Shown: positions 9,449 through 33,700 of the stretch, piece after piece
How positions within the stretch are numbered: the stretch's first letter is position 1
Layout of the letters: every line of letters starts with the position of its first letter
Source of the DNA: an uncultured Dehalococcoidales bacterium
GTDB taxonomy: Bacteria > Chloroflexota > Dehalococcoidia > GIF9 > AB-539-J10
Assembly (NCBI GenBank): GCA_964429285.1
Contig: CAYSBO010000002.1
Coordinates: 1 to 42,601 of the forward strand
DNA: 42,601 nucleotides
Reading direction: 5' to 3'
Made by a program: the position numbers and the translations under genes
The notes under the pieces: generated by a model
What the model was told of the DNA's origin: nothing
The model's database searches: none
The model's input: the letters and a program-made list of their open reading frames with translations, nothing else

Positions 9449-9456
9449 GGCTATTT

Positions 9457-10308: not shown

Positions 10309-10318
10309 GGCTGAGTTT

Positions 10319-11494: not shown

Positions 11495-11574
11495 TCATTC
11501 CCTCCACATGCTATTGCCGCACTAGGAGCCGGGGAATATCAGTTCGCTATCATAGTACCAGACATTCAATAGCC

Positions 11575-11719
11575 TCAACCCCAAATCTTTTGCCCAAGTG
11601 AAGCTTCTACTTGAGCGAAAATTTGCTCAGCAGTGGAGTGGTGCATGGAAACAGGTCCCGAAGGGAAGGCAGCACCAGTTCCAGCAAAAAGCTACTATTT
11701 CTGGTTGAAAGTTGTCCAT
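11575..11719 (-). pseudogene. Deletion scar: mvhD 5' end (RBS + 16 codons) fused to a decayed hdrA 3' end
   Basis: 11672-11730 matches the 5' end of mvhD at 7890-7950 at about 80% nt identity by eye, including the RBS and ATG (MDNFQPEIVAFCWNWC vs MEDFEPTIVAFFCNWC). 11575-11670 in another frame reads ...AFPSGPVSMHHSTAEQIFAQVEASLG*, compared with the HdrA (14122-16092) C-terminus ACPSGAITARQFTNEQIFAQVEGVLV*. The Cys ligand is replaced, so it is non-functional. A residual 30-codon ORF spans 11627-11719. Confidence 0.7.
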
Positions 11720-11827
11720 CTATCCTCCCGAAAGGGCCAGCTCACCCTTATTTGTTATGTCAATCATATGGATAGACTATGCGATCCAGCAGTGTCTGCA
11801 AATGACTATAGCAACTTATACGGTAGA

Positions 11828-13234: not shown

Positions 13235-13255
13235 ATATGGTGATTAGACCTCCCA

Positions 13256-14095
13256 TCAAGAATGCTTGGCCATCTCGGCCTGGCAACGCTGAAAGGAGCG
13301 TTTTTCCTCATCAAGATAAATACGCTGCCGAGCCGCCAGCAAGTCCCAGTCTACCTGGTGTCCGTCAAAATCAGGACCATCCACGCAGGCAAACTTGGTT
13401 GCCCCACCAACCGATACCCGGCAGCAACCGCACATGCCGGTACCATCGACCATTATCGGATTCAGGCTCACAATGGTCTTCACCCCAAAAGGCTCGGTGG
13501 TTTTGGCGCAGAACTTCATCATCACGGTAGGGCCAATGGCGATAACCCGGTCAACCTTCTCCCCGCTCTCCAGCACCTCCTTCAGAGGCTCAGTTACTAC
13601 CCCTTTGCGACCATACGTCCCGTCATCCGTAGTGACTATTAGCTGATGGCTGGCGTCACGCAGCTTGTCTTCCCAGAAGAGCAAGTCCTTGCTTCGCGCC
13701 CCCAAGATGGAGATAATATTGTTTCCCTTCTCTTTCAGCGCCTTGGCAATAGGCGCTATTACTGCAACACCAACCCCTCCCGCTACACAGACAATAGTGC
13801 CAAATTTCTCAATTTCCGAAGGTACGCCGAGGGGACCAACAAAGTCAGCAATAAAGTCTCCCGCATTGAGCTGGCCCAGCCTGAAGGTTGTCGCTCCTAC
13901 TTCCATGAACACCATGCTGACGCTGCCTTCCTTTTCATCCCAGTCAGCAATTGTCAGAGGGATACGCTCACCCTTTTCATCAACCCTGACCACAACGAAC
14001 TGTCCTGGCTGTGCTTTCCTGGCAACCGCCGGCGCTTCGATTTTGAACAGGTGAATCTTGTTGGCTAAAGTCTCTTTGTCAATGATTCCAAACAT
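13256..14095 (-). CDS. NfnA/SudB/PyrK-like FAD, [2Fe-2S] small subunit (copy 2)
   Basis: 279 aa. Motifs: QPGQFVVVRVDEKGERIPLTI, VCVAGGVGVA, DGTGMCGCCRV...KFACVDGPDF. Confidence 0.8.
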   Translation of the reverse strand: MFGIIDKETLANKIHLFKIEAPAVARKAQPGQFVVVRVDEKGERIPLTIADWDEKEGSVSMVFMEVGATTFRLGQLNAGDFIADFVGPLGVPSEIEKFGTIVCVAGGVGVAVIAPIAKALKEKGNNIISILGARSKDLLFWEDKLRDASHQLIVTTDDGTYGRKGVVTEPLKEVLESGEKVDRVIAIGPTVMMKFCAKTTEPFGVKTIVSLNPIMVDGTGMCGCCRVSVGGATKFACVDGPDFDGHQVDWDLLAARQRIYLDEEKRSFQRCQAEMAKHS

Positions 14096-14121
14096 TTGGC
14101 AAGCTCCATCCTAATTCACCC

Positions 14122-16092
14122 TCATACCAGTACTCCTTCTACCTGAGCGAAAATCTGCTCATTAGTGAACTGTCTTGCAGTTATTGCTCCGCTGGGACAT
14201 GCACCGGCACAGACGCCGCAGCCTTTGCACAAGGCCTCGTTGATTCGGCAGACTTCCTTTTCTTCGTCATAAGAAATGGCGCCAAAGGGACAAAGCGCGA
14301 GGCATGTCTTACAACCGGCGCATTTCTCTTCATCAATTGCTGATACCGCGGCCTCGAGCGTAATTCTACCTTGGCTTATCATTGCTAGAACCCTTGCCGC
14401 CGCTGCTGAAGCTTGGGCTACGGTATCGGGAATATCCTTGGGACTCTGGCAACAACCAGCAACGAAAATCCCCTCAGTAGGCGTAGCTACCGGATCCAGT
14501 TTGGGATGCCTCTCCAGGAAGAAACCGGTCGCCTTCTGGTTTATGGTAAATAGACTCGCTAGCTCTACAGCATCGGGTTGAGGCTCTAGGGCATTACACA
14601 GAATAACCATGTCTACTGGAATACGGATCATACTTCCTAGAAGCGTGTCCTCGGCAACCACGATGAGTTTGTCTTTTTCCTCGTCAGTTATGGCCTGATC
14701 GGTGACCTTGGCTACCTTGCCCCGAACAAAGTTGACTCCTTCTTCGGAGAGACGCGCGTAGAATTCCTCATATCCGTCTCCGAAGCACCGCATGTCGATA
14801 TACAACTGGTAGACGTCTGTGTTTGGCAGCTCTTCCTTAATGTAATTTGCCTGTTTAAGGGCGTACATACAGCAAACCCGGGAGCAATACTCATGATAAT
14901 TCTTGTCTCGGCTGCCAACACAATGGACTATGGCCACGCTCTCCGGCTCTCTGCCGTCCTTAAGGTGAATCTTCCCTTCGGTGGGTCCTGTAGGGCTCAC
15001 CATCCGCTCGAACTCCAGCCCAGTCATGACGCCATCGTATTTCCCGTAACCATACTGAGGAATGCGTTTGGGATCCATAAGGCTATAGCCGGTGGCCAGA
15101 ATAACTGACCCCACCTCTACTTCAATGAATTCGTCTTTCTGGTCAAAATCTATGGCTTCTGCCTCGCAGAGCTTAATGCAAGCTCCGCATTTCTTCCCTT
15201 CTGATTTGATGTAGATGCAGAGATCCGGATCAATGGTGGCAACGTTAGGGATAGCTTGAGGAAACGGAATATAGGCAGCCTTTCTCTTTGCCAGGCCCAG
15301 TTCGAATTCACTATCTGTCTTATAAGGGCATTTCTGCATGCACATACCACAGCCGGTACACTTGTCCTCGTCCACATACCTGGCTTTTTTCCTTATTTTG
15401 GCCTTGAAATTTCCTACGAAGCCGGAAACCTCCTCCACCTCGCTATAGGCCAACAGCTCGATATGGGGATGCGAACCTGCCTCGCTCATCTTGGGAGTAA
15501 GAATACATTGAGAACAGTCCAGGGTCGGGAAGGTCTTGTCAAGCTGGATCATGTGCCCGCCGATGGAGGGATCCCTCTCCACTAGATAGACCTTGTGCTC
15601 AGAGTTGGCAATCTCCAGAGCAGCTTGAATTCCGGCAATTCCCCCACCTACGACCAGAGTATTCGGATTATAGGGAGCCTCCTTGACTTCTAAGGCCTCC
15701 TGGTAGTGAACACGCCTCACCGCGGCGCCGATCAAAGCCTTGGCCTTCTCCGTATTCGCCTTCTTGTCTGAATTGACCCAGGAACATTGCTCTCTTATGT
15801 TTACCATTTCGAATAGATAACGATTTAGCCCGGCGCTTTCACAAACCCGTCGGAAAGTCACCTCGTGTAACCTGGGGGAGCAAGAAGCGACTATAACACG
15901 ATTGAGGTTATGTTCCTTAATGTCTTTTCTAATGAGGTCTTGCCCCGGGTCGGAACACATGAATACGTAATCACGGGACAGCACCACTTCGGGTAGCGTA
16001 CCCGCATATTTTGCTACCTCTTCCACATCGAGTGTCGCTGCAATATTCACTCCGCAGTGACAAACGTAAACGCCGATCCTTATATCTTCCAT
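14122..16092 (-). CDS. hdrA: Full-length heterodisulfide reductase subunit A-like flavoprotein (all four HdrA domains)
   Basis: Motifs: IGVYVCHCGVNIA, LVVGGGIAGIQAA, FPTLDCSQCILTPKM, inserted CTGCGMCMQKCP and CGACIKLCEAEAI, HCVGSRDKNYHEYCSRVCC, C-terminal CAGCKTCLALCPFGAI and CKGCGVCAGACPSGAI. I prefer ATG 16090-16092 (GGAGG 6 nt upstream, TGAAATG junction with hdrBC) over the track's TTG at 16119. Confidence 0.9.
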   Translation of the reverse strand: MEDIRIGVYVCHCGVNIAATLDVEEVAKYAGTLPEVVLSRDYVFMCSDPGQDLIRKDIKEHNLNRVIVASCSPRLHEVTFRRVCESAGLNRYLFEMVNIREQCSWVNSDKKANTEKAKALIGAAVRRVHYQEALEVKEAPYNPNTLVVGGGIAGIQAALEIANSEHKVYLVERDPSIGGHMIQLDKTFPTLDCSQCILTPKMSEAGSHPHIELLAYSEVEEVSGFVGNFKAKIRKKARYVDEDKCTGCGMCMQKCPYKTDSEFELGLAKRKAAYIPFPQAIPNVATIDPDLCIYIKSEGKKCGACIKLCEAEAIDFDQKDEFIEVEVGSVILATGYSLMDPKRIPQYGYGKYDGVMTGLEFERMVSPTGPTEGKIHLKDGREPESVAIVHCVGSRDKNYHEYCSRVCCMYALKQANYIKEELPNTDVYQLYIDMRCFGDGYEEFYARLSEEGVNFVRGKVAKVTDQAITDEEKDKLIVVAEDTLLGSMIRIPVDMVILCNALEPQPDAVELASLFTINQKATGFFLERHPKLDPVATPTEGIFVAGCCQSPKDIPDTVAQASAAAARVLAMISQGRITLEAAVSAIDEEKCAGCKTCLALCPFGAISYDEEKEVCRINEALCKGCGVCAGACPSGAITARQFTNEQIFAQVEGVLV

Positions 16093-16093
16093 T

Positions 16094-17251
16094 TCATTCC
16101 TCCGACATTGCCTCAGCAACTAGCTCAATTATGTCTTTAACCTGCATGGTCTCCGCCTTGCCCATAGAGAGCACGCTATCCCTGTAGTTGAGGAAACAGT
16201 AAGGACAGGCCACTGCTATGATTTCAGCACCTTTTTCGGCAGCTTGCTCCACTCTTATGTCAGAGAACCTTTCCCCTTTCGGGGTATCCATCCAGATTCT
16301 GCCGCCCCCACCCCCACAGCAAAGTGCGTCCTCGCGAAAGTCGGGAAACTCCATCAATTCCACCCCGGGGATACTCTCTAACACTTTTCTGGGCTCATCA
16401 TATATGTCGCTGTGCCTTCCCAAATAGCAGGGGTCAGAATAGATTACCTTCTTCTTTACTTCTTTGGAGAATTTTAGTTTCCCCTGGTCTAGGAGCGAAG
16501 CCAAATATTGGGTGACGTGAATTGCCTCAAATTGGCCCCCGAGCTCGGGGTATTCGTACTTGAAAGTGTAGTAGCAGTGGGGTGAAGAAGCCACCACGGT
16601 CTTGACGTCGTTATTGTTGAAAAGTTGAATATTGCTTTGGGCCAGACTGAGAAATGTATCTTCATGCCCAGCTTTTCTAATAGACTCGCCGCAGCATTTT
16701 GCCTCAGTGCCTATCAGGCCGTAGTCAAGCCCCAGCTTGTTGAACACCGTAGCAGTGGACCGGGCCACTGTCTTTGCATCAGGGTCGTAGGAAGGAATAC
16801 AGCACGGGAAATACAGCAGGTCAGTGCCGGAAGCAAAGTCCTTCACGTTGAGTTCTTTCGCCCAGTCGTTCCGTTTTTCTGGTGCCTCCCCAAGGGGGTT
16901 TCCTACCCCGGCGATGTTTTTGGCCGAAATCCTCAGAGCATCGGGGACGACCCCAATACCTAGGCTAGCTACAGCCCGGCGTATAGCTCTCATGATATCG
17001 ATTATCTCCACACCCCGGGGGCAGCGTTGAACACAGGCCCCACAGGTGACGCAGGTCCAGACATCCTCGCTGCCAAAATCAATTGCCCCGAGCTGAGACT
17101 CATGCATGATACGACGAACGACGAAACTGCGTACCTGGTTCCAGGGACAAATTCCGGTGCAAAGGCCGCATTGGTAGCACAATTTGAGAGGTTCGCCACC
17201 AGCCTCCAGTATCACATCTGTAGCTTCTTTGTAAGGACTTAATACTTCCAT
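16094..17251 (-). CDS. HdrC-HdrB fusion (HdrD/GlpC-like) Fe-S protein with two CCG domains
   Basis: N-terminal CYQCGLCTGICPW and CVTCGACVQRCPRG (2x[4Fe-4S]), followed by CCG-type motifs FPCCIPSYD..KCCGESI and DPCYLGRH..LCCGGGGG..CPYC. ATG 17249-17251 with GAGGTGA 7 nt upstream is preferred over the TTG at 17287, which lies inside a hairpin/A-tract. Confidence 0.85.
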   Translation of the reverse strand: MEVLSPYKEATDVILEAGGEPLKLCYQCGLCTGICPWNQVRSFVVRRIMHESQLGAIDFGSEDVWTCVTCGACVQRCPRGVEIIDIMRAIRRAVASLGIGVVPDALRISAKNIAGVGNPLGEAPEKRNDWAKELNVKDFASGTDLLYFPCCIPSYDPDAKTVARSTATVFNKLGLDYGLIGTEAKCCGESIRKAGHEDTFLSLAQSNIQLFNNNDVKTVVASSPHCYYTFKYEYPELGGQFEAIHVTQYLASLLDQGKLKFSKEVKKKVIYSDPCYLGRHSDIYDEPRKVLESIPGVELMEFPDFREDALCCGGGGGRIWMDTPKGERFSDIRVEQAAEKGAEIIAVACPYCFLNYRDSVLSMGKAETMQVKDIIELVAEAMSEE

Positions 17252-17285
17252 CTTTGTTTCACCTCGGCCTTTCAGAATTGGCCAC

Positions 17286-17328
17286 AAAAAAAGGTGGCCC
17301 CCACAAGAGTACTACGGTCACCTTTTTT
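17286..17328 (-). terminator. Hairpin flanked by A7 and T6 tracts (bidirectional-terminator-like or attenuator-like element) in the leader of the hdr cluster
   Basis: Minus strand reads AAAAAAGGTGACC-gtagtactcttgtggg-GGCCACCTTTTTTT: a 7-bp stem with one A:C mismatch, a 16-nt loop and a U7 tail. The 3' stem arm can alternatively pair with the downstream GTGGCC (GGCCAC-N8-GTGGCC). Confidence 0.4.
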
Positions 17329-19534: not shown

Positions 19535-20695
19535 TTGGAGATGGAAAAGGCAAAGGTGAGGGAGGCTGTTGAACTGCAAAGGCAGCAGCTTATCCAGCTG
19601 AGCCTGAACATTCATGATAACCCTGAGTTGGGGCTGGAAGAAGAGAAAGCATCTGCCTGGCTTACCGGCTATCTTGAAGACAGTGGATTCAGCGTAGAAC
19701 GAGGCATTGCTGGCCTGGCCACGGCCTTTCGAGCAACGTATGGCCGTGGGAGCCCAAGAATTGCCCTGCTTGCGGAATATGATGCTTTGCCAGGAATAGG
19801 ACATGCCTGCGGGCATAACATAATTGGTACTTCGGCAACGGGGGCTGGTGTGGCTAGTAGGCCTATCATTGACCAGTTAGGGGGTAGTGTGGTGGTTCTG
19901 GGCACTCCTGCGGAGGAAGGTCTTGGGGGCAAGATAGACATGGCCAAAGCGGGGGTCTTTCAAGGGATAGACGCGGCCATGATAGTTCACCCCGATGTAC
20001 GAAACATAATAACCATACAGGCGCTTGCCTGCAGCACCCTGGATGTGGAGTTTTTCGGCAAATCGGCTCATGCTGCTGCTCAGCCTTACGAGGGCATAAA
20101 TGCCCTTGAAGCTATGATTCTGGCCTTCACTTCAATAAACTCGTTGCGTCAGCACATGAGAGAAGGGGGACGGGTCCACGGCATAATCACCGACGGGGGT
20201 GAAGCACCCAACATAGTGCCTGCCCACAGCGCTGGCGTATTTTTGGTACGTGCCCCGGATAACGACTATCTCGACGAGTTGAAGAGCAAGGTCTTGAACT
20301 GCTTTGCGGGGGCGTCTACAGCCAGTGGAGCGAGATTGGAATACAGGTGGAGAGACAAGGCTTACGCCCCGATGAAAAACAACGCGACTCTGGCGCAGCT
20401 ATTTAGCCAGAACTTGGAATCGCTGGGACGCAATGTAGAAGCTTTCCAGCCCGAATTTGGCTTTGGTAGCACGGACATGGGAAATGTCAGTCAGTTGGTG
20501 CCGAGCATACATCCAACGATAGCTATAGCCTCCCCCGAAGTGTTCATACACACCCCGGAGTTTGCTGCGGCAGCCGCCTCGGAAGCGGGGCACGAAGGGC
20601 TAATGGACGCAGCCAAGGCAATGGCTATGACTGTAGTGGATGTCCTCCAGCCGGGCATGCTGGACAAGATCAAGCAGGATTTCTGCCAGGGCTAG
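19535..20695 (+). CDS. M20-family metallo-amidohydrolase/peptidase (AbgB/YxeP-like)
   Basis: 386 aa. Motifs: HDNPELGLEE, EYDALPGIGHACGHNIIG, GTPAEEG. A TTG at 19535 follows AAGAGGT by 8 nt; ATG 19541 is the alternative start. Confidence 0.75.
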   Translation: MEMEKAKVREAVELQRQQLIQLSLNIHDNPELGLEEEKASAWLTGYLEDSGFSVERGIAGLATAFRATYGRGSPRIALLAEYDALPGIGHACGHNIIGTSATGAGVASRPIIDQLGGSVVVLGTPAEEGLGGKIDMAKAGVFQGIDAAMIVHPDVRNIITIQALACSTLDVEFFGKSAHAAAQPYEGINALEAMILAFTSINSLRQHMREGGRVHGIITDGGEAPNIVPAHSAGVFLVRAPDNDYLDELKSKVLNCFAGASTASGARLEYRWRDKAYAPMKNNATLAQLFSQNLESLGRNVEAFQPEFGFGSTDMGNVSQLVPSIHPTIAIASPEVFIHTPEFAAAAASEAGHEGLMDAAKAMAMTVVDVLQPGMLDKIKQDFCQG

Positions 20696-20864
20696 GTTAG
20701 TCCCTGCCAGTATATGGGCAGTAACCAATGGCGCGATTATGGTGATTGGCTTCATCCGGCATGTTGTAGCAACCCGAATTGAAGCCGATGGCGAGTCAAG
20801 TGAGTTGACCCGGAAAATTGAGGAAATGCTAAAATACCGGTATTAGGTGGAAGAGAGGAGTCTT

Positions 20865-21317
20865 ATGAAAGTTGTTTTACTGGAAAACATCCCGGGAAAG
20901 GGAAGAGCGGGGGAGATAAGGGAAGTTAGCCAAGGCTTTGCCAGGAACTTCCTTCTGCCCCGCGGTTTGGCTCTGGTAGCCACCCCCGCGATCATCAGAG
21001 AAACGGAGGCCAAGCTGCAGAAGGAACAGAGGGAAGAAATGATGGACCGGGACAAACTGGCTGAACTAGCTCAGCAGATCGAGGGAACGGTGGTTCATTT
21101 CAAGGCCCGCGCCGGCGCCGGAGACCGCCTGTTCGGCTCGGTCACCGCCGCTGACATAGCCGAAGAAGTGGGTCGAGTCACGGGCTCCGTTATCGACAAG
21201 AAAAAGATAGACATAGAAAAACCTCTGCGCCAGGCAGGGAGCCACGAAGTGACCGTCCGGTTGGCTGGCGACATTAAGCCGCAAATTACCGTGGTTGTCG
21301 AGGAGGAGCAGGATTAG
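20865..21317 (+). CDS. rplI: 50S ribosomal protein L9
   Basis: MKVVLLENIPGKGRAGEIREVSQGFARNFLLPRGLA. ATG 20865 is preceded by GAGAGGAG; the track's GTG at 20847 is rejected. Confidence 0.9.
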   Translation: MKVVLLENIPGKGRAGEIREVSQGFARNFLLPRGLALVATPAIIRETEAKLQKEQREEMMDRDKLAELAQQIEGTVVHFKARAGAGDRLFGSVTAADIAEEVGRVTGSVIDKKKIDIEKPLRQAGSHEVTVRLAGDIKPQITVVVEEEQD

Positions 21318-21319
21318 GT

Positions 21320-22696
21320 ATGGCAGAAGACAAAGCCCCGCCTCATGATATTGAAGCTGAGGAAGCACTGATCGGGTCTCTGCTGATTGACCCTGATGCG
21401 GTATTGAAGGTTGCGCCTTCGCTCAAGGCGGAGGATTTCTTCTCGGAGACAAATCGAACGATTTACCAGGCCTGTTCTTCCCTGTATCAACGCAATGAAG
21501 TCATAAACCAGATTACAGTGGGTCACGAGCTAATGCGTCAGAACAAGCTGGAGCAAATCGGCGGTGCTGCCTTTCTCAGTCATCTGATAAGCAATGTCCC
21601 TACGTCTCTGCACGCTGAATACTATGCGCAGATAGTATCCAATGCAGCGGTGATGCGGCGGCTGATCGCGGCTGCCGGGCAGATTGAAGCCCTTGGCTAC
21701 GAAGCCAGCCCGAATATTGAAGCTAGCCTTAACAAAGCTGAAGATATACTTTTTCAGGTTCGAATGAGGCGGGACCTTCGTGATTTCGTTCCAATTCGTG
21801 ATGCTTTGGGCCAGTACTTTGAGGAGGCCGGATCACCTGCTGCGCTCCAGGCAGGAGAAATCCCTCATGTTCTGACGGGTTTTGCGGCCTTGGATAATTT
21901 CCTGGGAGGATTACAAAGGTCTGACTTGATTGTCCTGGCGGCCAGGCCCAGCCTGGGCAAAACGAGTTTGGCTCTGAATATTGCCAGAAATGCTGCTGTT
22001 GACCAGAAGGCTTGTGTCGCTTTGTGCAGTCTAGAGATGTCCCGGGAGGCGGTGGTGCAGAGGCTGCTGGCCAGCGAGTCCGGGGTGGAGTCTAGAAAAG
22101 TCCGCCTCGGGCGGTTCGGTGAGCAGGATGAGGTAAAGGTCATGGAAGCCAGCGGAGTTCTATCTGAGGCGCCGATATATGTTGACGATTCCCCTCAACT
22201 CCGCGTTCTGGACATAAGAAGCAAGGTGCGGCGCCTTCATTTTGAGCGCAATATCGACCTGATTATCGTAGACTATCTGCAACTGATACAAGGCGAAGGC
22301 AAGAATGAAACCCGGGTCCAGGAGATTAGCAAGATAACCCGTGCCTTGAAAACCCTGGCCAGGGAGCTCAATGTGCCGGTACTGGCAGTGTCACAACTCA
22401 GTCGTGCTGTGGAATGGCGGGCGTCTCATATACCTCAGCTTGCTGACTTGCGGGAAAGTGGTAGTATTGAGCAGGATGCCGACGTGGTCCTTTTTATCTA
22501 TCGAGATGACATGTACTTTTCGGCTGAGGATTGGAGCAAGGTGCACGACATTGAAAAAGAACCTTATCCCCGCGGCATCGCGGATGTCATAGTATCCAAA
22601 CATCGCAACGGTCCTCTAGGACAGCTAAAGCTGCGCTTCGCGGGCAGCATCGCCAAGTTTGCAAATCTGGAGGCCGCGACGATCCCGGCTTCGTAA
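21320..22696 (+). CDS. dnaB: Replicative DNA helicase DnaB
   Basis: 458 aa. PPHDIEAEEALIGSLL, Walker A ARPSLGKTSLALN, IVDYLQL, and the RESGSIEQDADVV motifs. Confidence 0.95.
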   Translation: MAEDKAPPHDIEAEEALIGSLLIDPDAVLKVAPSLKAEDFFSETNRTIYQACSSLYQRNEVINQITVGHELMRQNKLEQIGGAAFLSHLISNVPTSLHAEYYAQIVSNAAVMRRLIAAAGQIEALGYEASPNIEASLNKAEDILFQVRMRRDLRDFVPIRDALGQYFEEAGSPAALQAGEIPHVLTGFAALDNFLGGLQRSDLIVLAARPSLGKTSLALNIARNAAVDQKACVALCSLEMSREAVVQRLLASESGVESRKVRLGRFGEQDEVKVMEASGVLSEAPIYVDDSPQLRVLDIRSKVRRLHFERNIDLIIVDYLQLIQGEGKNETRVQEISKITRALKTLARELNVPVLAVSQLSRAVEWRASHIPQLADLRESGSIEQDADVVLFIYRDDMYFSAEDWSKVHDIEKEPYPRGIADVIVSKHRNGPLGQLKLRFAGSIAKFANLEAATIPAS

Positions 22697-22706
22697 GGGT
22701 GAAGAG

Positions 22707-23399
22707 ATGCCAGACCTGCAAATATCAGGTTCTCAGAAGAAAACAGATTCTGTCTCTCTGCCAGGGTCCTTCTTTACCGGGACAATGCCGGAAATCCAGG
22801 ACCTGGCCGAACTTAAAGCTATACTGTACGTAGCTTATCTTATCCTGCGAAAGCAAGAGCATGAGTTGGTTTCCCGTCATTCTGGGGCTATGGTCGGCCG
22901 AGCATTTTCTGAAGCTGAGAACATGCCTCGTTCTGTCACTTACAGGGAGTTGTTATCCCATGAACCTATGGCGGCAATAGGGGATGAACCGCTCCGCCGA
23001 GCCTTGAACTTGGCTGTGGAGGATGGGGCTCTTTTGCACTCGACTTCTGATGTGAACGGAGTGCAGGAGGATTTATATTTTCTGACTGCTCCCATGTATG
23101 AGGGGCGTGAGTGGGCAAAGGTCAGCATTTATGCTCTGTACGAACAGAATATCGGCATGATAACGCCCATAGTTGCTGAAGAGCTTCAGGAGGCAGAGAG
23201 GCTTTATCCGCCGGGGTGGATTGAAGAAGCCTTCAAGGAAGCAGTTGTGCTCAACAAGCGCAGTTGGAAATATATCGCCCGCATACTTGAAAGATGGGCT
23301 AGCGAAGGCAAGGACAGTGGAGAGCATAAAGGAAACACTAAAAAAGGTGGCCCAGACAAATTCATCAAGGGCAAATACGGACACCTCGTCAAAAGGTGA
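22707..23399 (+). CDS. DnaD-domain (DnaB_2) replication initiation/primosome protein
   Basis: The C-terminal sequence YALYEQNIGMITPIVAEELQEAERLYPPGWIEEAFKEAVVLNKRSWKYIARILERWASEG is a typical DnaD C-terminal domain. ATG 22707 lies 10 nt after the dnaB stop. Confidence 0.75.
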   Translation: MPDLQISGSQKKTDSVSLPGSFFTGTMPEIQDLAELKAILYVAYLILRKQEHELVSRHSGAMVGRAFSEAENMPRSVTYRELLSHEPMAAIGDEPLRRALNLAVEDGALLHSTSDVNGVQEDLYFLTAPMYEGREWAKVSIYALYEQNIGMITPIVAEELQEAERLYPPGWIEEAFKEAVVLNKRSWKYIARILERWASEGKDSGEHKGNTKKGGPDKFIKGKYGHLVKR

Positions 23400-24708
23400 T
23401 GCTGCCCTCCCCTCCACAGAAGAAGATGGAGGCGATGCTTGCTCTATTTGCAGAGGGGCCGGCTTCGTTCATCCTGTTCTGGATTCAGGGCAGGTCGATT
23501 TCAGCCGGGTGGTACCCTGCCGCTGCAGCAAGGGAGAGCTGAAAAGGAAGAAGACAGAATATCTTGAGAAGTACAGCAATCTGGGTTCTCTGTCACAGCT
23601 GACGTTTGATAATTTGTCTCCGGAAGGAAGGGTGGGGGATGCCGCTTCCCAGGAGCGCTTTGCCCTGATTTACCAGGCTGCCAGAGCCTTTGCTGATAAC
23701 CCCAGGGGCTGGCTGGTATTCTCAGGCCCTGGTGGCTCCGGCAAAACACACCTGGCCTGTGCCGTGGCCAATCACCGTCTGGGCTTGGGAGAGCCCGTGT
23801 TCTATATCGGCGCTGCCGACCTCCTGGACCATCTCCGCTCGGCTTTCGGTCCCACAAGCGATATCACTTACGACGATCTATTCGAGCAAGTCAAGAATGT
23901 GCCTCTATTGGTGCTCGATGACCTTTCTGTGGGAAGCGCTACTACCTGGGCCAAGGAAAAGCTGGAGCAACTCCTGAACCATCGTTTCAACACCAGGTTG
24001 GCTACGGTGATCACCACCGATATGCCCGTGGATAGAATGACTGAACGATTGCGCGGCCAGCTTGCCGATAGTGAATTCTGCCAGGTATGGACGATCGAAC
24101 AGAAGTCATCCCTCGAATACCGGGGTAGCCTCGGACTAGAGCTGTTGCGAAAGATGACCTTCGATAACTTTGACCACAAGAGGCTGGAGCTCCCCACAGA
24201 ACAGCGTCAAAACCTGCGCCAGGCTTTCCATTTAGCCGAAGGATTCGCTCGCTCACCTGAGGGTTGGCTGATATTCCAGGGCGTCAATGGCTGTGGTAAG
24301 ACGCACTTGGCGGCAGCCATCGCCAACCACCGGCTGGCGCAAGGAGAGCCGGTCTTCTTCGTAGTTGTAGCCGATCTTCTTGACCATTTGCGCTCTACGT
24401 TCAGTCCGGATAGCAAGATATCCTATGACGAGTTTTCGGAGAAGATCAAAGAAATCCCCTTGCTGATACTTGACGACTTCGGCGAGCAATCGGCTACACC
24501 CTGGGCCCAGGAAAAGCTGTATCAGTTGATAAATTACCGTTACAACGCCAGGTTGCCCATGGTGGTCACCACGTGTCTCTCCTTAGACGAAATTGAAACC
24601 CGGATCAGTTCGCGAATGGTCGACCCCAGGATAAGTCTGGTGTTCAATATCACAGCTCCTGATTATCGAGGCAATGTGAAGCCCTTCCGACAAGCCAGGC
24701 GCTACTGA
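23347..24708 (+). CDS. Tandem-duplicated DnaC/DnaI-like AAA+ helicase-loader protein with an N-terminal 4-Cys module (start uncertain)
   Basis: There are two colinear modules offset by 185 aa. Module 1: TFDNL..WLVFSGPGGSGKTHLACAVANHRL..LLVLDDLS..NHRFNTRLATVITTD. Module 2: TFDNF..WLIFQGVNGCGKTHLAAAIANHRL..LLILDDFG..NYRYNARLPMVVTT. The N-terminus carries CSIC-x22-CRC. No canonical start exists between the dnaD stop (23399) and the first Cys (23440). Candidate in-frame starts are GTG 23347 or GTG 23317; the ATG at 23173 is unlikely. Confidence 0.75.
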   Translation: MAQTNSSRANTDTSSKGDAALPSTEEDGGDACSICRGAGFVHPVLDSGQVDFSRVVPCRCSKGELKRKKTEYLEKYSNLGSLSQLTFDNLSPEGRVGDAASQERFALIYQAARAFADNPRGWLVFSGPGGSGKTHLACAVANHRLGLGEPVFYIGAADLLDHLRSAFGPTSDITYDDLFEQVKNVPLLVLDDLSVGSATTWAKEKLEQLLNHRFNTRLATVITTDMPVDRMTERLRGQLADSEFCQVWTIEQKSSLEYRGSLGLELLRKMTFDNFDHKRLELPTEQRQNLRQAFHLAEGFARSPEGWLIFQGVNGCGKTHLAAAIANHRLAQGEPVFFVVVADLLDHLRSTFSPDSKISYDEFSEKIKEIPLLILDDFGEQSATPWAQEKLYQLINYRYNARLPMVVTTCLSLDEIETRISSRMVDPRISLVFNITAPDYRGNVKPFRQARRY

Positions 24709-24752
24709 TCTGGCTACAGGAGAGCCGTCCCACCCCACTGGTGATTACTTTG

Positions 24753-25388
24753 TCAGGGCCGAACCTGTGTTCCCCGTCTCAATGACAACCGCAACAGATG
24801 CACGGCAGCTACTTCCACCCAGACGATGGCGTTCGCCACTATGATTCGCTCATACAAACCAAACCAGCCTGTTTGATCGACAAAGAGAGCCCCCAGTATC
24901 AAAGCCAGACCCAGGATACCCGCGACAAGCGTGTAGGTGAAGAGGTTTCTCCAATTGGGGTCGCCCTTGAGGCTGGGTGCCAGTGACAGAATAGAGACAG
25001 GGAATAGCAAGCCAAGGCCATAAGATGCCGCTGTGTGGATTATGCCTTCATTGGGCAGAGCTCCGGGGTGGTCCGTTCGGAAAGCAGCAATCAGCAGCAA
25101 CGCGAAACCACACAAGGCGAGCAGGGCGATACCCGAATGAAACCCTCGTGCCCTACGAATGTTGAAAAAGAGCCCGGCTACAAGCATTACCTCCAGCAAG
25201 CCCATGGCCAGAAAACCAATCGATTGCAGCCAGCCTATGGGAGTCAACGCCAGACTGCTGATTGAATCCCTGACTATGCTGTAGCCTGGAGTAGACAGAG
25301 ACGCTGCCAGGTCGCCGACAACAACCATGATGGCCCCCACGATACCGGCGAGAGCCGGGATACTGTTGATATTCACACGTTTAGCCAC
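24753..25388 (-). CDS. Polytopic membrane protein, probably DUF998 family
   Basis: 211 aa with about 6 hydrophobic segments and a GTG start. The family assignment is from memory of the DUF998 pattern (..YSIVRDSISSLA.., ..GLYERI..) and is tentative. Confidence 0.6.
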   Translation of the reverse strand: MAKRVNINSIPALAGIVGAIMVVVGDLAASLSTPGYSIVRDSISSLALTPIGWLQSIGFLAMGLLEVMLVAGLFFNIRRARGFHSGIALLALCGFALLLIAAFRTDHPGALPNEGIIHTAASYGLGLLFPVSILSLAPSLKGDPNWRNLFTYTLVAGILGLALILGALFVDQTGWFGLYERIIVANAIVWVEVAAVHLLRLSLRRGTQVRP

Positions 25389-30796: not shown

Positions 30797-33700
30797 ATGC
30801 CGCGGAAGTTTGCCCATCTTCACGTCCACACGGAATACAGCCTGCTCGATGGTATGTGCCGCATCCCTCACCTAGTTGCCCGCGCTAAAGAGTTGGGCAT
30901 GGACAGCCTTGCGATCACTGATCATGGTGCTATGTATGGCGTTATAGATTTCTATACGGCAGCTAAGGAAGCAGGTATAAAGCCAATCATTGGCTGCGAA
31001 GTGTACGTCGCTGACACCGACCGCCGTAGTCGAGAACCGGCCCGCAAAAGCCCCTATCACCTTACTCTGCTGGCCAAGAGTGAGAAGGGCTACCGCAATT
31101 TGCTTCAACTGGTTACCAAAAGCCACCTCGAGGGATTCTACTACAAGCCACGGGTAGACAAAGAGCTTCTAGAGCTTCATCATGATGGGCTTATCGCGCT
31201 TTCTGGATGCGCTCACGGGGAACTGGCTCGGCTTATTCTGGAGGGGCGCGGTGACGACCTTGCCAAAGCGGCTTTGTGGTACAAAGAGGTCTTCGGGGAT
31301 TACTACCTGGAGATTCAAAGACACCCCATTCCCGAACTGGAGCAAATAAATCAAGAGCTCATTTCTCTATCCACTAAACTGGATATACCGCCAGTGGCTA
31401 CGTTTGATGTGCATTACGTTGACAAGAAAGACGCCCCGGCCCATGAGCTTCTTCTGTGTATACAGACCAACACCTCGGTATATGATGAGAAAAGGCTGAA
31501 GATGGCCGGCGATTTCTTCTATCTGAAAAGTCCCGGAGAGGTGGAAGAACTATTTGCTGACTTACCTCAGGCAGTAGAGAACACCCAGGTTGTGGCTGAC
31601 ATGTGCCGGTTGGAGCTGGATTTTACCAAACTCCGTCTGCCCCAGGTAGAGCTTCCCGCAGGAAAGACAGCTGACGATTTCCTGGCTGAGCTGTGTTGGC
31701 AAGGCCTGGAGAAACGTTACCCGGCCGGATTGCATCGTGAAGAGGTCAAGGCCCAGTTCAGCCACGAGCTTGATGTCATCCAGAAAACAAAGTTTGCCCC
31801 CTACTTCCTGGTTGTTTGGGACATAATCAGCTTTACCAGAAAACGGGGCATCTATTTTGGTGTTCGGGGAAGTGCTGCTGCGAGCGTGGCCCTGTACTGT
31901 CTGGAAATCACCGATATAGACCCCCTGAGCCATGGCCTGGTTTTTGAACGGTTCCTCAATGTCGAGCGCCGTGAGCTGCCTGATATTGACCTTGATTTTC
32001 AGGATGATCGTCGCGACGAAGTCCTTGCCTACGTCAACGAGAAATACGGCCACGACCACGTGGCCCAAATAATTACCTTCGGCACCCTGGGAGCCAGAGC
32101 GGCGATACGCGATACCGGAAGGGCTCTGGGTATGCCTTATGCTCAGGTTGACCGGGTGGCCCGACTTATTCCTATTGAGCTGACCATAACGCTGGACAGG
32201 GCTTTGGAACAGAGCAGGGAGCTTTATGAAATCTACCACCAGGACGAGGCAATACGTAACCTGGTTGACTCGGCCAGAAAACTAGAGGGCATGGTCAGGC
32301 ACGTTAGCACTCATGCCGCCGGGGTGGTGATCGCGCATGAGTCCCTGATTGAATACGTGCCACTACAACCATTGGGAAGGGGCGAATCCCGACAGGTTGG
32401 AATCATGACTCAGTTCCACATGTGGAACATCGCCCGCCTGGGGCTGCTGAAGATGGACTTTCTGGGGTTGTCCAATTTGACCATTCTGGCCAGAGTCAAA
32501 GAAATCATAGCCCAGAATTATGGAATCTCTTTGGATCTGCAGCATATCCCTGTGGATGATGCCAAGACTTTTGAGTTGCTTGCCTCGGGAGAAACCAGAG
32601 GCATCTTCCAACTGGAAGGCGCAGGGATGCGTCGTTACATCAAGGAACTCAAACCCACTAGCTTCAGCGATATCGCAGCCATGGTGGCACTCTACCGTCC
32701 CGGCCCCATGGAGCAGCTTCCCACTTTTATTAGAGCAAAGCAGGGTGCCGTCCCTGTCCATTATCCCCATCCGATTCTAAGAGAAGTCCTGGAAGAAACC
32801 TACGGGGTTATCGTTTATCAGGAGCAGGTAATATTCATCGCCCAGGCTCTAGCCGGCTATAGCTTGGGCCAGGCTGACATCTTTCGCAAAGCTATGGGCA
32901 AGAAGATACCTGCGGTGATGAAAAAAGAGGAGCGCAACTTCATCGCTGGCGCACAGAAAAGAGGCATATCAACGGAACTGGCCAGGGAGGTATTCTCCCT
33001 GATCGAGCCTTTCGCTGGCTACGCTTTCAACAAAGCCCATAGTGTCAGTTATGCTCTGATTGCCTACCGCACCGCCTATCTTAAGGCGAATTATCCCACT
33101 GAGTACATGGTTGCCTTACTTGACACCTATTCGGACAATATGGATAAGGTTCGTTCGGCAATTGCTGAATGTCGCCGACTCGGCATCAAGGTGCTTCCGC
33201 CGGACGTAAACAAGAGCCGTGCTAGCTTTACCATTGAAAAGCAAGATGACAAGGACACGGCTATTCGTTTCGGCCTGGCTTCTATCAAGAATGTTGGCTC
33301 CTCCCCGATTGACCATATGTTGTCTGACCGGGACTCAGGGGGCGACTTTATGTCCATAGAGGATTTCTGCTATCGAATTGACCTTCATAATATCAACAAG
33401 AAAGCGTTGGAAAGCTTGATCAAAGTTGGTGCCTTTGACTCCCTGGGCAGCCGTAAGACACTACTGGAGTCCCTGAACAGGAATATCTCTCTGGCTCAAA
33501 TGAAACGAAGAGCAAAGGAATCGGGACAGGTGAGCATGTTTGATTCGTTGACTCCGGACTCTTCTATCCCACGTGTCGATAACGGACATGCGGAGGAAGA
33601 AGTATCGATGCAGCAGAAGCTTATCTGGGAAAGAGAGCTGTCAGGCGTCTACTTTTCCCGCCCCCTTGATTCGCTCGCTGGAGAGTTGTCTTCATCAGGA

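What the first reader, a model, noticed from the sequence alone, without database searches (positions are those of the whole stretch)
23347..24708. Helicase-loader gene encoding two complete DnaC/DnaI-like AAA+ modules in one polypeptide
Seen in sequence: downstream of rplI-dnaB-dnaD, one ORF contains two colinear modules of about 185 aa. Module 1 spans about 23602-24096 and module 2 about 24157-24660. Each has the TFDN(L/F) lead-in, Walker A (GPGGSGKT at 23725-23748; GVNGCGKT at 24280-24303), the shared HLA.A.ANHRL..GEPVF....ADLLDHLRS.F.P stretch, Walker B (LLVLDD / LLILDD) and a N.R(F/Y)N.RL....TT sensor region. They are preceded by a CxxC-x22-CxC module. Established knowledge: DnaC/DnaI/IstB-type loaders are single-AAA+ proteins that oligomerise on DnaB. 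Inference: a covalent dimer would fix the stoichiometry and allow the two ATP sites to specialise. Module 1 has DDLSVGS where module 2 has the more canonical DDFGEQS.
Basis: partly seen in the sequence, partly recalled or inferred. Interest (0 to 1): 0.65.

Follow-up and report, generated by a model that had tools for sequence, protein, structure and literature searches.

The report
Helicase loader with two ATPase modules
The gene next to the replicative helicase encodes a DNA-helicase loader with two copies of its ATPase engine in one chain instead of the usual one; this old duplication is conserved in hundreds of Dehalococcoidia genomes and appears not to have been described, so it offers a natural system for asking how many loader ATP sites a helicase needs.

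Summary
One uninterrupted ORF (best start GTG 23317, not 23347; stop at 24708; 463 aa) encodes an invariant Cys4 zinc module followed by two colinear DnaC/DnaI-type AAA+ modules. The modules are 45% identical over 184 aa (BLASTP E=1e-58).

It is not an assembly artefact. At least 517 species-level genomes encode a relative. The best 80 are all Dehalococcoidia/Chloroflexota, and all carry both modules in one ORF inside a conserved rplI-dnaB-dnaD-loader operon. 106 of the 150 best 50%-identity cluster representatives have two modules.

The duplication is old: identity between the two modules of one protein has a median of 43%. Both modules model as initiator-clade AAA+ folds.

The two ATP sites have specialised. 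Both keep the Walker A lysine, the first Walker B aspartate and the ssDNA-binding tetrad. Only module 2 keeps the arginine finger and sensor II across the family. Module 1 has lost sensor II, and in this genome it has Gln at the finger position.

Natural variants with one and four modules sit in the same operon context. Viral relatives have one module.

How the modules pack and the loader:DnaB stoichiometry remain inferred. No paper describing a tandem loader was found. Verdict: a new variant of a known kind, moderately interesting.

The parts
20847..21317 (+). rplI (ribosomal protein L9), first gene of the conserved rplI-dnaB-dnaD-loader block
   Evidence: ORF. Homologues lie at the same relative position in all related loci with enough flank. 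Ribosomal_L9 Pfam labels in L081 and L084.
21320..22696 (+). dnaB, replicative helicase (458 aa), the presumed client of the loader
   Evidence: Pfam DnaB (1.7e-31) and DnaB_C (2e-97). Syntenic in all loci.
22659..23399 (+). DnaD-domain gene (DnaD/DnaB_2, DDBH2-type). The real start may be the ATG at 22707. Its 3' end overlaps the loader gene by 83 nt.
   Evidence: Pfam DnaB_2 4.7e-10, TIGR01446 DnaD_dom 2.3e-11, PHROG 'DnaD-like helicase loader'. The overlap with the loader start is conserved in related loci.
23317..24708 (+). Loader gene (463 aa, stop codon included): N-terminal helix, Cys4 zinc module, AAA+ module 1, short linker, AAA+ module 2
   Evidence: ORF. Start-codon conservation. 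Closest database protein P0001 is 463 aa and 97% identical. AlphaFold model mean pLDDT 80.
23440..23526 (+). Cys4 zinc module C42-x2-C45-x22-C68-x-C70 (463-aa numbering), the presumed helicase-binding element
   Evidence: All four Cys are 81/81 in the Dehalococcoidales set and 65-66/66 in the diverse set. No Pfam or PDB sequence match. pLDDT 62-78.
23581..24132 (+). AAA+ module 1 (residues 89-272), the degenerate module. Walker A K143/T144, Walker B D201 D202, Asp235 at the sensor-I position, R244 (coupler position), Gln248 at the arginine-finger position, R269 at the sensor-II position (not conserved in the family). ssDNA tetrad R174/F177/T209/W211.
   Evidence: Self-alignment. Column counts. 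Module 1 alone: AlphaFold pLDDT 84.8, pTM 0.83. Best folds: E. coli DnaC 6qem_G TMq 0.75, Aquifex DnaC, DnaA domain III.
23725..23748 (+). Module 1 Walker A, GPGGSGKT
   Evidence: Sequence. Lys 224/224 in two-module relatives.
23905..23922 (+). Module 1 Walker B, LLVLDD
   Evidence: Sequence. First Asp D 223/224 (1 Glu). Second position Asp/Glu in 192/224, Gly in 27.
24058..24060 (+). Module 1 arginine-finger position: CAG = Gln in this genome
   Evidence: Sequence. Column R39/H36/Q2/K2 among 81 Dehalococcoidales. R165/H39/K11/Q4 among 224.
24136..24681 (+). AAA+ module 2 (residues 274-455), the conserved module. Walker A K328/T329, Walker B D386 D387, Cys420 at the sensor-I position, arginine coupler R429, arginine finger R433, sensor II R451. 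ssDNA tetrad R359/F362/T394/W396.
   Evidence: Core pLDDT 88-97.
24280..24303 (+). Module 2 Walker A, GVNGCGKT
   Evidence: Sequence. Lys 223/224.
24460..24477 (+). Module 2 Walker B, LLILDD
   Evidence: Sequence. First Asp D 222/224 (2 Glu). Second position Asp/Glu in 213/224.
24613..24615 (+). Module 2 arginine finger R433, in the R-x3-R motif TRISSR that matches E. coli DnaC R216/R220
   Evidence: Sequence. R 218/224. Motif definitions from PMC8213410.
24667..24669 (+). Module 2 sensor II R451, in APDYRG
   Evidence: Sequence. R 81/81 and 192/224.

Best explanation
This is the chromosomal DnaC/DnaI-type loader of the replicative DnaB helicase in a Dehalococcoidia bacterium. It is made as one 463-aa chain: a Cys4 zinc module plus two tandem initiator-clade AAA+ modules that arose by an old internal duplication.

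Shown:
- The single ORF.
- The duplication and its age.
- The AAA+ fold of both modules.
- The conserved rplI-dnaB-dnaD-loader operon.
- The unequal conservation of ATPase motifs in the two modules.

Inferred mechanism:
- The zinc module and the helix after it dock the protein on DnaB, as the N-terminal domains of DnaI and DnaC do.
- With ATP, the AAA+ modules assemble DnaC-style and grip single-stranded DNA. Both modules keep the DnaC ssDNA-binding tetrad.
- Module 2 has Walker A and B, the arginine coupler, the arginine finger and sensor II. It provides the hydrolysing 'timer' site.
- Module 1 keeps Walker A, the first Walker B Asp and the ssDNA contacts, but has lost sensor II family-wide and, in this genome, the arginine finger. 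It is an ATP- and ssDNA-binding module that hydrolyses slowly or not at all, and it extends or stabilises the assembly.
- Each polypeptide is therefore a pre-formed, functionally asymmetric AAA+ pair.

Whether three chains give one six-module spiral, or six chains give twelve modules, is not decided by my data.
For: Reality and spread:
- One ORF.
- Self-alignment 45% identity, E=1e-58.
- More than 8000 database relatives. The top 120 are 446-476 aa at 98-100% coverage.
- At least 517 species-level genomes. The best 80 are all Dehalococcoidia/Chloroflexota, each with one ORF spanning both modules.
- 106 of the 150 best representatives have two modules.

Loader identity:
- The match is to DnaC/IstB-type families, in two stretches.
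- PDB sequence hits: E. coli DnaC 6qel, Aquifex DnaC, IstB, DnaI.
- Fold hits per module: DnaC, DnaI, DnaA domain III.
- The operon with dnaB and a DnaD-domain gene is conserved down to 41% identity.
- Brezellec et al. 2016 list exactly one dna[CI] gene and no dciA in Dehalococcoides genomes.

Old duplication:
- Module 2 of relatives is closer to window module 2 than to window module 1 in 217 of 223 proteins.
- Identity between the two modules of one protein has a median of 43%, range 25-57%.

Asymmetry (224 two-module relatives):
- Arginine-finger Arg: module 1 165, module 2 218.
- Sensor II Arg: module 1 11, module 2 192.
- Walker A Lys: 224 and 223.
- ssDNA-tetrad Trp: 222 and 220.
- In E. 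coli DnaC, loss of any one of the five AAA+ motifs abolishes ATPase, while several such mutants still load DnaB (PMC8213410).

Module 2 is sufficient on its own: a 278-aa zinc-plus-module-2-like protein occupies the same operon slot on a 532-kb contig.
Against: - There is no biochemical evidence for anything here.
- The sensor-I Asn is replaced in both modules (Asp235, Cys420), so even module 2 may be a poor ATPase.
- In a simple head-to-tail spiral, module 2's canonical ATP site would be completed by module 1's degenerate finger (Gln here), and module 1's degenerate site by module 2's invariant finger. That fits a clean 'active versus dead site' picture poorly.
- In a minority of distant relatives the pattern is partly reversed. 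About 30 proteins have lost sensor II in module 2 while module 1 keeps Asn, Arg and Arg.
- The inter-module geometry of the model is not trustworthy (pTM 0.51, linker pLDDT below 50), and no coordinates were available to me.
- The zinc module has no detectable similarity to DnaI-N, so its role in binding DnaB is assumed by analogy.
Confidence: 0.65

Rival explanations
1. Trimer of covalent dimers. The two modules alternate in a single DnaC-like six-module spiral, so three loader chains (three zinc modules) serve one DnaB hexamer. The fusion fixes a 3:6 stoichiometry and gives alternating strong and weak ATP sites.
For: - Two modules of DnaC size and fold sit in tandem with a short connection.
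- The ssDNA tetrad is invariant in both modules, as expected if all six line one ssDNA path.
- E. coli DnaC forms a six-protomer cracked spiral on DnaB (PMC8213410).
Against: - Motif conservation is mismatched for alternating interfaces: module 2's invariant finger would feed module 1's degenerate site, and module 1's Arg/His/Gln finger would feed module 2's canonical site.
- A four-module variant (P0121) does not divide evenly into six.
- The single-module variant must use module 2 to module 2 contacts.
- AlphaFold gives no confident inter-module packing.
Confidence: 0.3
2. Six chains per hexamer with homotypic contacts. The module 2 domains form the DnaC-like catalytic spiral, as in single-module relatives. 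The module 1 domains form a second tier or a filament extension that binds further ssDNA, or contacts DnaD or DnaA. This would be analogous to the active and inactive tiers of type II AAA+ proteins.
For: - Module 2 keeps a self-consistent full motif set, cis and trans. Module 1's cis elements (sensor II, second Walker B residue) and its trans element (the finger) have degenerated together.
- A zinc-plus-module-2 protein exists alone in the same operon slot.
- One zinc module per chain would preserve the 6:6 docking known for DnaC and DnaI.
Against: - Whole-length fold matches to p97/Cdc48-type tandem AAA+ proteins are poor (rmsd 15-18 A, TMq 0.23-0.35).
- There is no direct evidence for a second tier.
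- The link from strand 5 of module 1 to helix 0 of module 2 is about 34 residues, which does not discriminate between the models.
Confidence: 0.3
3. Module 1 is an evolutionary leftover with no specific role. It is tolerated, not needed, and the protein works as an ordinary single-module loader.
For: - A close lineage has lost module 1. The junction fuses the module 1 lead-in to the module 2 core; the cluster has 44 members, on contigs up to 532 kb.
- Module 1 has lost sensor II, and here the arginine finger too.
Against: - Module 1 is under clear purifying selection: Walker A Lys 224/224, first Walker B residue D 223/224, ssDNA-tetrad Arg 219 and Trp 222 of 224.
- Mean pairwise identity is 55% for module 1 versus 57% for module 2.
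- Module 1 is retained in at least 80 of 80 sampled species, and over divergence down to about 33% identity.
Confidence: 0.1
4. It is not the chromosomal loader but part of a mobile element: an IS21 IstB-type transposition helper or a prophage replication module.
For: - The best Pfam family is IstB_IS21.
- PHROG phrog_50 matches.
- Single-module homologues with the same zinc module occur on viral contigs.
Against: - There is no transposase or phage gene nearby.
- The rplI-dnaB-dnaD-loader synteny is invariant across all loci, with dnaE 6 kb downstream.
- The IS21_help_AAA score of 131.8 is below the cutoff of 200.
- None of the 80 best IMG/VR loci or the 12 phage records listed has a match longer than one module, at most about 830 nt.
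Confidence: 0.03
5. Assembly or sequencing artefact: two adjacent genes merged, or a repeat collapsed or expanded.
For: Some odd multi-module database entries look suspicious. P0122 and P0129 have near-identical adjacent modules.
Against: - 80 independent genomes and thousands of metagenomic proteins have the same uninterrupted 446-476-aa architecture.
- The two modules are only 45% identical, so a repeat collapse is not plausible.
Confidence: 0.01

Closest known systems
E. coli DnaC / Aquifex aeolicus DnaC (AAA+ helicase loaders; PDB 6QEL/6QEM, 3EC2/3ECC)
   Same: - Initiator-clade AAA+ fold for each module. The whole-protein model matches 6qem_G at rmsd 2.3 A over 183 columns. Module 1 alone matches 6qem_G at TMq 0.75 and 3ecc at TM about 0.7.
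- Walker A and B, and the R-x3-R arginine coupler/finger in module 2.
- The C-terminal DYR sensor II.
- An ssDNA tetrad equivalent to K143/F146/S177/Y179 in both modules.
- A gene linked functionally to dnaB.
   Different: - Two AAA+ modules per chain instead of one.
- A Cys4 zinc module instead of DnaC's helical hairpin helicase-binding domain.
- Sensor-I Asn replaced (Asp in module 1, Cys in module 2).
- Module 1 lacks a conserved sensor II, and here lacks the arginine finger.
- NCBIfam DnaC equivalog score 136.6, below the cutoff of 357.
Bacillus subtilis DnaI with its partners DnaD and DnaB (Firmicute loading system)
   Same: - An N-terminal zinc-binding domain followed by AAA+. DnaI-N binds the helicase through a Zn module (PMC1636449 and PMC2673437).
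- The loader gene lies directly downstream of a DnaD/DnaB_2-domain gene.
- AAA+ fold match to DnaI 2W58, TMt 0.73.
   Different: - No detectable sequence similarity between the zinc modules.
- Cys4 ligands spaced CxxC-x22-CxC, whereas C67, C70 and H84 are implicated in Zn coordination in DnaI (PMC1636449 abstract).
- Tandem AAA+ modules.
- DnaI equivalog score 91.5, below the cutoff of 228.
Phage DnaC-like helicase loaders (PHROG phrog_50; IMG/VR contigs L085 and L086)
   Same: - The same layout of N-terminal helix, Cys4 module and AAA+ in 259-263-aa viral proteins, 42-45% identical.
- They are plausible ancestors, in line with the phage-domestication scenario for Chloroflexi (PMC5109545).
   Different: - Viral versions have one module with canonical TSN/TTN sensor I, the R..SR motif and sensor II.
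- No tandem form was seen among the 80 best viral loci or the 12 phage records listed.
IstB (IS21 transposition helper; PDB 5BQ5, 8Q3W)
   Same: Top Pfam family. AAA+ fold and C-terminal 'G.SYR'-like sensor II segment.
   Different: No IstA partner. Chromosomal replication operon. Score below the NCBIfam cutoff. Tandem modules and a zinc module.
Type II AAA+ proteins with two ATPase modules per chain (p97/Cdc48, NSF, ClpB)
   Same: Two AAA+ modules in one polypeptide, one of them with degenerate catalytic motifs. This is a resemblance in concept only.
   Different: Different AAA+ clade. Whole-length superpositions are poor (rmsd 15-18 A, TMq 0.23-0.35). There is no evidence here for stacked closed rings.

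Membership tests
DnaC/DnaI-type AAA+ replicative helicase loader | Initiator-clade AAA+ fold | tested here: met
   Both modules have the same b1-a-b2-a-a-b3-a-b4-a-b5 order, with core pLDDT 88-97. Module 1 alone has pTM 0.83, and its best folds are DnaC 6qem_G, 3ecc, DnaA domain III and DnaI. The whole-protein model also hits 2w58, 3ecc and 6qem.
DnaC/DnaI-type AAA+ replicative helicase loader | Walker A GxxGxGK[TS] and Walker B hhhhD[DE] | tested here: met
   GPGGSGKT / LLVLDD and GVNGCGKT / LLILDD. Lys 224 and 223 of 224.
DnaC/DnaI-type AAA+ replicative helicase loader | Sensor I polar residue (Asn203 in E. coli DnaC) | tested here: not met
   Asp235 in module 1 and Cys420 in module 2. The columns are variable across the family. 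Asp occupies this place in DnaA (my own knowledge), so function is not excluded.
DnaC/DnaI-type AAA+ replicative helicase loader | Arginine finger, with an arginine coupler four residues upstream (R216/R220 in E. coli DnaC) | tested here: inconclusive
   Module 2: met (R429, R433; finger Arg in 218/224). Module 1: the coupler R244 is present, but the finger position is Gln248 in the window. In the family it is Arg 165, His 39, Lys 11, Gln 4.
DnaC/DnaI-type AAA+ replicative helicase loader | Sensor II arginine near the C-terminus (R237 in E. coli DnaC) | tested here: inconclusive
   Module 2: R451, 81/81 and 192/224. Module 1: the window has R269, but the column is Leu/Ile/Val/Gln in the family, with Arg in only 11/224.
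DnaC/DnaI-type AAA+ replicative helicase loader | ssDNA-binding tetrad (K143, F146, S177, Y179 in E. coli DnaC) | tested here: met
   R174/F177/T209/W211 and R359/F362/T394/W396. These are nearly invariant in both modules.
DnaC/DnaI-type AAA+ replicative helicase loader | N-terminal helicase-binding domain | tested here: inconclusive
   An invariant Cys4 module precedes the AAA+ region. It has no Pfam DnaI_N match and no PDB sequence match. Binding to DnaB was not tested.
DnaC/DnaI-type AAA+ replicative helicase loader | One AAA+ module per polypeptide (true of all characterised members) | tested here: not met
   There are two modules in one ORF. This is the point of departure from the family.
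DnaC/DnaI-type AAA+ replicative helicase loader | Genomic or functional association with the replicative helicase | tested here: met
   rplI-dnaB-dnaD-loader in every locus with enough flank, down to 41% identity. Dehalococcoides genomes have one dna[CI] gene and no dciA.
DnaC/DnaI-type AAA+ replicative helicase loader | Loads DnaB onto ssDNA in an ATP-dependent manner | not testable with these tools
   Needs biochemistry.
NCBIfam curated models (DnaC NF005931, DnaI NF006505, IstB NF038214, PRK08116 NF005992) | Score above the curated cutoff | tested here: inconclusive
   DnaC 136.6 against a cutoff of 357, DnaI 91.5 against 228, IstB 131.8 against 200: all below. PRK08116 ('hypothetical protein' subfamily) scores 213.4 against 189, but that score sums two stretches.
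IstB / IS21 transposition helper | Encoded next to an IstA transposase within an IS element | tested here: not met
   The neighbours are rplI, dnaB, dnaD and a DUF998 gene. No transposase is present in the window or in related loci.
Type II (double-ring) AAA+ ATPases | Two AAA+ modules arranged as stacked D1/D2 tiers of the classic clade | tested here: not met
   There are two modules, but whole-length Foldseek matches to p97/Cdc48/ATAD2 have rmsd 15-18 A and TMq 0.23-0.35. Each module is closest to the initiator clade. Quaternary structure was not testable.

The most novel reading that the evidence does not exclude
A bacterial helicase loader has evolved by intragenic duplication into a covalent, functionally asymmetric AAA+ pair. 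It works at a loader:helicase chain ratio different from the textbook 6:6, for example three chains per DnaB hexamer, with alternating hydrolysing and non-hydrolysing ATP sites. This would be a bacterial counterpart of the built-in asymmetry of ORC/Cdc6 and clamp loaders. Natural one-, two- and four-module versions in the same operon slot would show that the number of loader ATPase modules per chain is evolutionarily adjustable.
Probability: 0.3. Interest if true: 0.75.

Novelty: new variant of a known kind. Interest (0 to 1): 0.55.

Why it matters
Loading of the replicative helicase is the committed step of bacterial replication. Its mechanism has been worked out on single-module loaders that form six-subunit spirals, where every ATP site is identical and mutations hit all six at once.

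A natural loader in which two sites are covalently linked and have diverged allows the sites to be mutated one at a time. That permits direct questions:
- How many ATP sites are needed to open DnaB?
- How many arginine fingers and ssDNA contacts are needed?
- Which steps need hydrolysis?

Natural one-module and four-module relatives in the same operon give built-in controls.

It also shows that the whole class Dehalococcoidia, including the organohalide-respiring Dehalococcoides used in bioremediation, uses a loader architecture that databases label only as 'ATP-binding protein' or 'DnaC'.

If the stoichiometry turned out to be 3:6, it would change the assumed symmetry of loader-helicase complexes.

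Tried and rejected
1. Artefact or two genes: rejected. All 80 related genomes have one ORF spanning both modules.

2. IstB or prophage module: rejected by synteny and sub-cutoff scores.

3. Similarity of the zinc module to DnaI-N or any solved structure: nothing found by Pfam (E up to 10) or by phmmer against the PDB.

4. Inter-module packing from AlphaFold: not usable. pTM is 0.51, the linker pLDDT is below 50, and no coordinates were exposed to scripts. I therefore could not say which arginine finger faces which ATP site.

5. Correlating loss of module 1's second Walker B residue with loss of either finger, to infer interfaces: uninformative. Module 2's finger is almost invariant, and the two module 1 losses are not associated: (kept, kept) 136, (kept, lost) 56, (lost, kept) 29, (lost, lost) 3.

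6. Neighbour-joining tree of modules: long branches and noisy, so used only qualitatively. The simpler closest-module test supports one old duplication for module 2. Window module 1 is the faster-evolving copy, so distant module 1 copies look slightly nearer to window module 2.

7. Finer taxonomy of distant two-module relatives: source names say only 'Chloroflexi/Chloroflexota/Dehalococcoidia bacterium'. I could not check whether Anaerolineae or Chloroflexia loaders are also tandem.

8. Promoter and terminator scan of 20500-25000: no promoter-like sites, and no more terminator-like sites than in shuffled sequence.

9. Literature: five full-text searches found no description of a tandem-AAA+ helicase loader. 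Brezellec et al. 2016 list the Dehalococcoides orthologue as dna[CI] without comment on its architecture.

Full report
**1. Checking the observation**

The window has a single open reading frame from 23173 to 24708 on the + strand. Splitting its product in two and aligning the halves gives 82 identities over 184 positions: 45% identity, 63% positives, three gapped positions, BLASTP E=1e-58. The internal repeat is therefore real and far beyond chance.

- GPGGSGKT at 23725-23748 and GVNGCGKT at 24280-24303.
- LLVLDD at 23905-23922 and LLILDD at 24460-24477.
- The shared HLA.A.ANHRL..GEPVF....ADLLDHLRS.F.P stretch.
- CxxC-x22-CxC at 23440-23526.

Pfam IstB_IS21, NCBIfam PRK08116 and PHROG phrog_50 ('DnaC-like helicase loader', E=6e-85) each match in two separate stretches. 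Upstream lie rplI (20847-21317), dnaB (21320-22696; DnaB and DnaB_C domains) and a DnaD-domain gene (22659-23399).

One correction concerns the start codon. It is most likely GTG 23317, not 23347.
- The equivalent codon is GTG or ATG in 47 of 80 related loci. The 22 loci with GAA at that codon appear, in the examples printed, to have an ATG one codon upstream.
- It follows a conserved GAAGG(T/C)AA.
- It opens the family-wide N-terminus ME(S)(I/L)G.ILKR.
- The codon equivalent to 23347 is not conserved as a start.

The gene is thus 23317-24708, encoding 463 aa, and it overlaps the DnaD-domain gene by 83 nt. Residue numbers below use the 463-aa numbering.

**2. It is not an artefact, and not a rarity**

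- A search of 5.8 billion proteins returned the maximum of 8000 hits. The best 120 are 446-476 aa, 81-97% identical, at 98-100% coverage. They are named 'DNA replication protein DnaC' or 'ATP-binding protein [Dehalococcoidia bacterium]'.
- A scan of one genome per species found at least 517 species encoding a relative. The best 80 (57-85% identity) are all Dehalococcoidia, Dehalococcoidales or Chloroflexota assemblies, including one labelled Dehalococcoides mccartyi.
- In all 80, the two modules sit in one uninterrupted ORF.
- Among representatives of clusters at 50% identity, 606 score below 1e-30. Of the best 150, 106 have two modules, one has three and one has four. The remaining 42 have one complete module or none, and part of them are gene fragments.
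- The gene order rplI-dnaB-dnaD-loader is kept in every locus with enough flanking DNA. It is still there at 41% identity on a 3.3-Mb contig.

**3. Age and origin of the duplication**

- Across 223 two-module relatives, module 2 is closer to the window's module 2 than to its module 1 in 217 cases.
- Identity between the two modules of one protein has a median of 43%, range 25-57%.
- The duplication is therefore old, and the copies are not being homogenised. The window's module 1 is the faster-diverging copy.
- Viral relatives are single-module. None of the 80 best IMG/VR loci or the 12 phage records listed (of 699 matching) has a match longer than about 830 nt.
- Two viral contigs encode 259- and 263-aa proteins with the same N-terminal helix and Cys4 module, and one canonical AAA+ module with TSN/TTN, R..SR and a C-terminal Arg.
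- This fits Brezellec et al. (PMC5109545). They inferred one domestication of a phage dna[CI] gene in Chloroflexi, and their supplement lists exactly one dna[CI] and no dciA for each Dehalococcoides genome. They do not mention the tandem architecture.

**4. Structure**

- An AlphaFold2 model built on a 66-sequence alignment has mean pLDDT 80. Both modules show the same strand and helix order, with core pLDDT of 88-97.
- The linker (residues 270-272) has pLDDT below 50 and pTM is only 0.51, so the relative orientation of the modules is not reliable.
- Single-module fold matches are DnaI 2W58 (TMt 0.73), Aquifex DnaC 3EC2/3ECC (TMt 0.79-0.80), E. coli DnaC 6QEM_G (rmsd 2.3 A over 183 columns) and DnaA domain III.
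- Whole-length matches to p97/Cdc48-type tandem ATPases are poor, at rmsd 15-18 A.
- Module 1 is the more degenerate copy, so I modelled it alone. It gives pLDDT 84.8 and pTM 0.83. Its best matches are E. coli DnaC in the DnaB-DnaC-ssDNA complex (TMq 0.75), Aquifex DnaC, DnaA and DnaI.

**5. The two ATP sites are not equivalent**

I used the motif definitions for E. coli DnaC from PMC8213410:
- Walker A K112.
- Walker B E170.
- Sensor I N203.
- Arginine coupler R216.
- Arginine finger R220.
- Sensor II R237.
- ssDNA tetrad K143/F146/S177/Y179.

I combined them with the HMMER alignment to 6QEL and counted columns in 81 Dehalococcoidales sequences, 66 diverse sequences and 224 two-module proteins.

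Counts in the 224 two-module proteins:

| Motif | Module 1 | Module 2 |
|---|---|---|
| Walker A Lys | 224 | 223 |
| First Walker B residue Asp | 223 | 222 |
| ssDNA-tetrad Arg | 219 | 216 |
| ssDNA-tetrad Trp | 222 | 220 |
| Second Walker B residue acidic | 192 (Gly in 27) | 213 |
| Arginine finger Arg | 165 (His 39, Lys 11, Gln 4) | 218 |
| Sensor II Arg | 11 | 192 |

In the window itself:
- Module 1 has Q248 at the finger position and R269 at the sensor-II position. Its relatives have Leu, Ile, Val or Gln at the latter.
- Module 2 has R429, R433 and R451.
- The sensor-I Asn is replaced in both modules: Asp235 in module 1 and Cys420 in module 2.
- The loss of sensor II in module 1 makes sense. 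The C-terminal tail that carries it in DnaC has become the linker to module 2.
- Both modules are under purifying selection, with mean pairwise identity of 55% and 57%.

**6. Natural variants**

- A cluster of 44 proteins of 267-278 aa has the zinc module fused to a module-2-like domain that is 74% identical to the window's module 2. The junction joins the module 1 lead-in (YSNLGSL) to the module 2 lead-in (MTFDNFD). One member occupies the same rplI-dnaB-dnaD slot on a 532-kb contig. Module 1 can therefore be lost, and module 2 with the zinc module suffices in that lineage.
- An 827-aa protein has one zinc module and four AAA+ modules. It follows an intein-containing dnaB and a DnaD-domain gene on a 64-kb contig.

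**7. How it most likely works**

Shown: this is the DnaC/DnaI-type loader gene of the replicative-helicase operon, made as a single chain with two AAA+ modules whose catalytic motifs have diverged.

Inferred:
- The zinc module docks on DnaB, by analogy with DnaI-N (PMC1636449, PMC2673437). No sequence similarity supports this.
- Both modules bind ATP and ssDNA.
- Module 2 supplies the hydrolysing site.
- Module 1 is an assembly and ssDNA-binding module that hydrolyses slowly or not at all.

Two packing models remain open:
- Model (a): three chains form one alternating six-module spiral.
- Model (b): six chains form a module-2 spiral plus a module-1 tier or extension.

The pattern of motif conservation leans slightly towards (b). 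Module 1's cis and trans elements have degenerated together, while module 2's are all kept, and a module-2-only relative exists. I could not test this, because the model's inter-module geometry is unreliable and no coordinates or complex prediction were available.

**8. Comparison with what is known, and novelty**

- Each module is a member of the DnaC/DnaI/IstB/DnaA initiator clade by fold and motifs.
- The protein fails the curated equivalog cutoffs for DnaC, DnaI and IstB.
- It departs from every characterised loader in having two AAA+ modules, and from DnaI and DnaC in its N-terminal domain.
- Five full-text searches found no description of a tandem-AAA+ helicase loader.
- The sequences are public but generically annotated.
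- I rate it a new variant of a known kind: a real, conserved and apparently undescribed architecture of a well-known machine.
- Interest is moderate (0.55). It would rise if the stoichiometry or the division of labour proved unusual.

Noticed in passing
window 22659-23399 / 23317-24708: The DnaD-domain gene and the loader gene overlap by 83 nt in different frames. The overlap and both reading frames are conserved in related loci, which suggests translational coupling. The DnaD-domain gene's own start may be the ATG at 22707 instead of TTG 22659, which overlaps dnaB.
   Followed up: partly
L084 6001-6837 (also L083 120-956): A close relative has a 278-aa single-module loader (zinc module plus a module-2-like domain) in the same rplI-dnaB-dnaD slot. 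It looks like a clean deletion of module 1 between the two TFDN lead-ins. An HNH endonuclease gene lies directly downstream in both loci.
   Followed up: partly
L082 2433-7484: An 827-aa loader has one zinc module and four AAA+ modules. Modules 1-3 are most similar to each other, which suggests further, later duplications. It follows a dnaB that carries an intein, and a DnaD-domain gene.
   Followed up: partly
L085 3911-4690; L086 694-1485: IMG/VR viral contigs encode single-module proteins of 259 and 263 aa with the same Cys4 module and canonical sensor I, arginine finger and sensor II. They are candidate phage ancestors of the cellular tandem loader.
   Followed up: partly
window 30797-34255 (+): dnaE (DNA polymerase III alpha subunit: PHP, DNA_pol3_alpha, finger, HHH and OB domains) lies about 6 kb downstream of the loader, so several replisome genes are clustered.
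   Followed up: no
window 8042-17287 (-): There is a tandemly duplicated pair of genes: an NfnB/GltD-like Fer4_20 + Pyr_redox_2 protein (468 aa, at 8042-9448 and 11828-13234) and a DHODB Fe-S-binding subunit (9457-10308 and 13256-14095). They are interleaved with MvhD/FlpD-ferredoxin, HdrA-like and CCG-domain (HdrB-like) genes. This looks like an electron-bifurcation-type cluster.
   Followed up: no
P0122, P0129 (database proteins, no window coordinates): Some multi-module database entries have adjacent modules that are nearly identical, and odd C-terminal tails. These may be very recent duplications or assembly artefacts, and I did not count them as evidence.
   Followed up: no
about 30 distant two-module relatives listed (e.g. 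P0126, P0150, P0151, P0179): In this subgroup the asymmetry is partly reversed. Module 2 has lost sensor II (and sometimes the second Walker B Asp), while module 1 keeps Asn at sensor I plus both arginines. Which module degenerates may therefore differ between lineages.
   Followed up: partly
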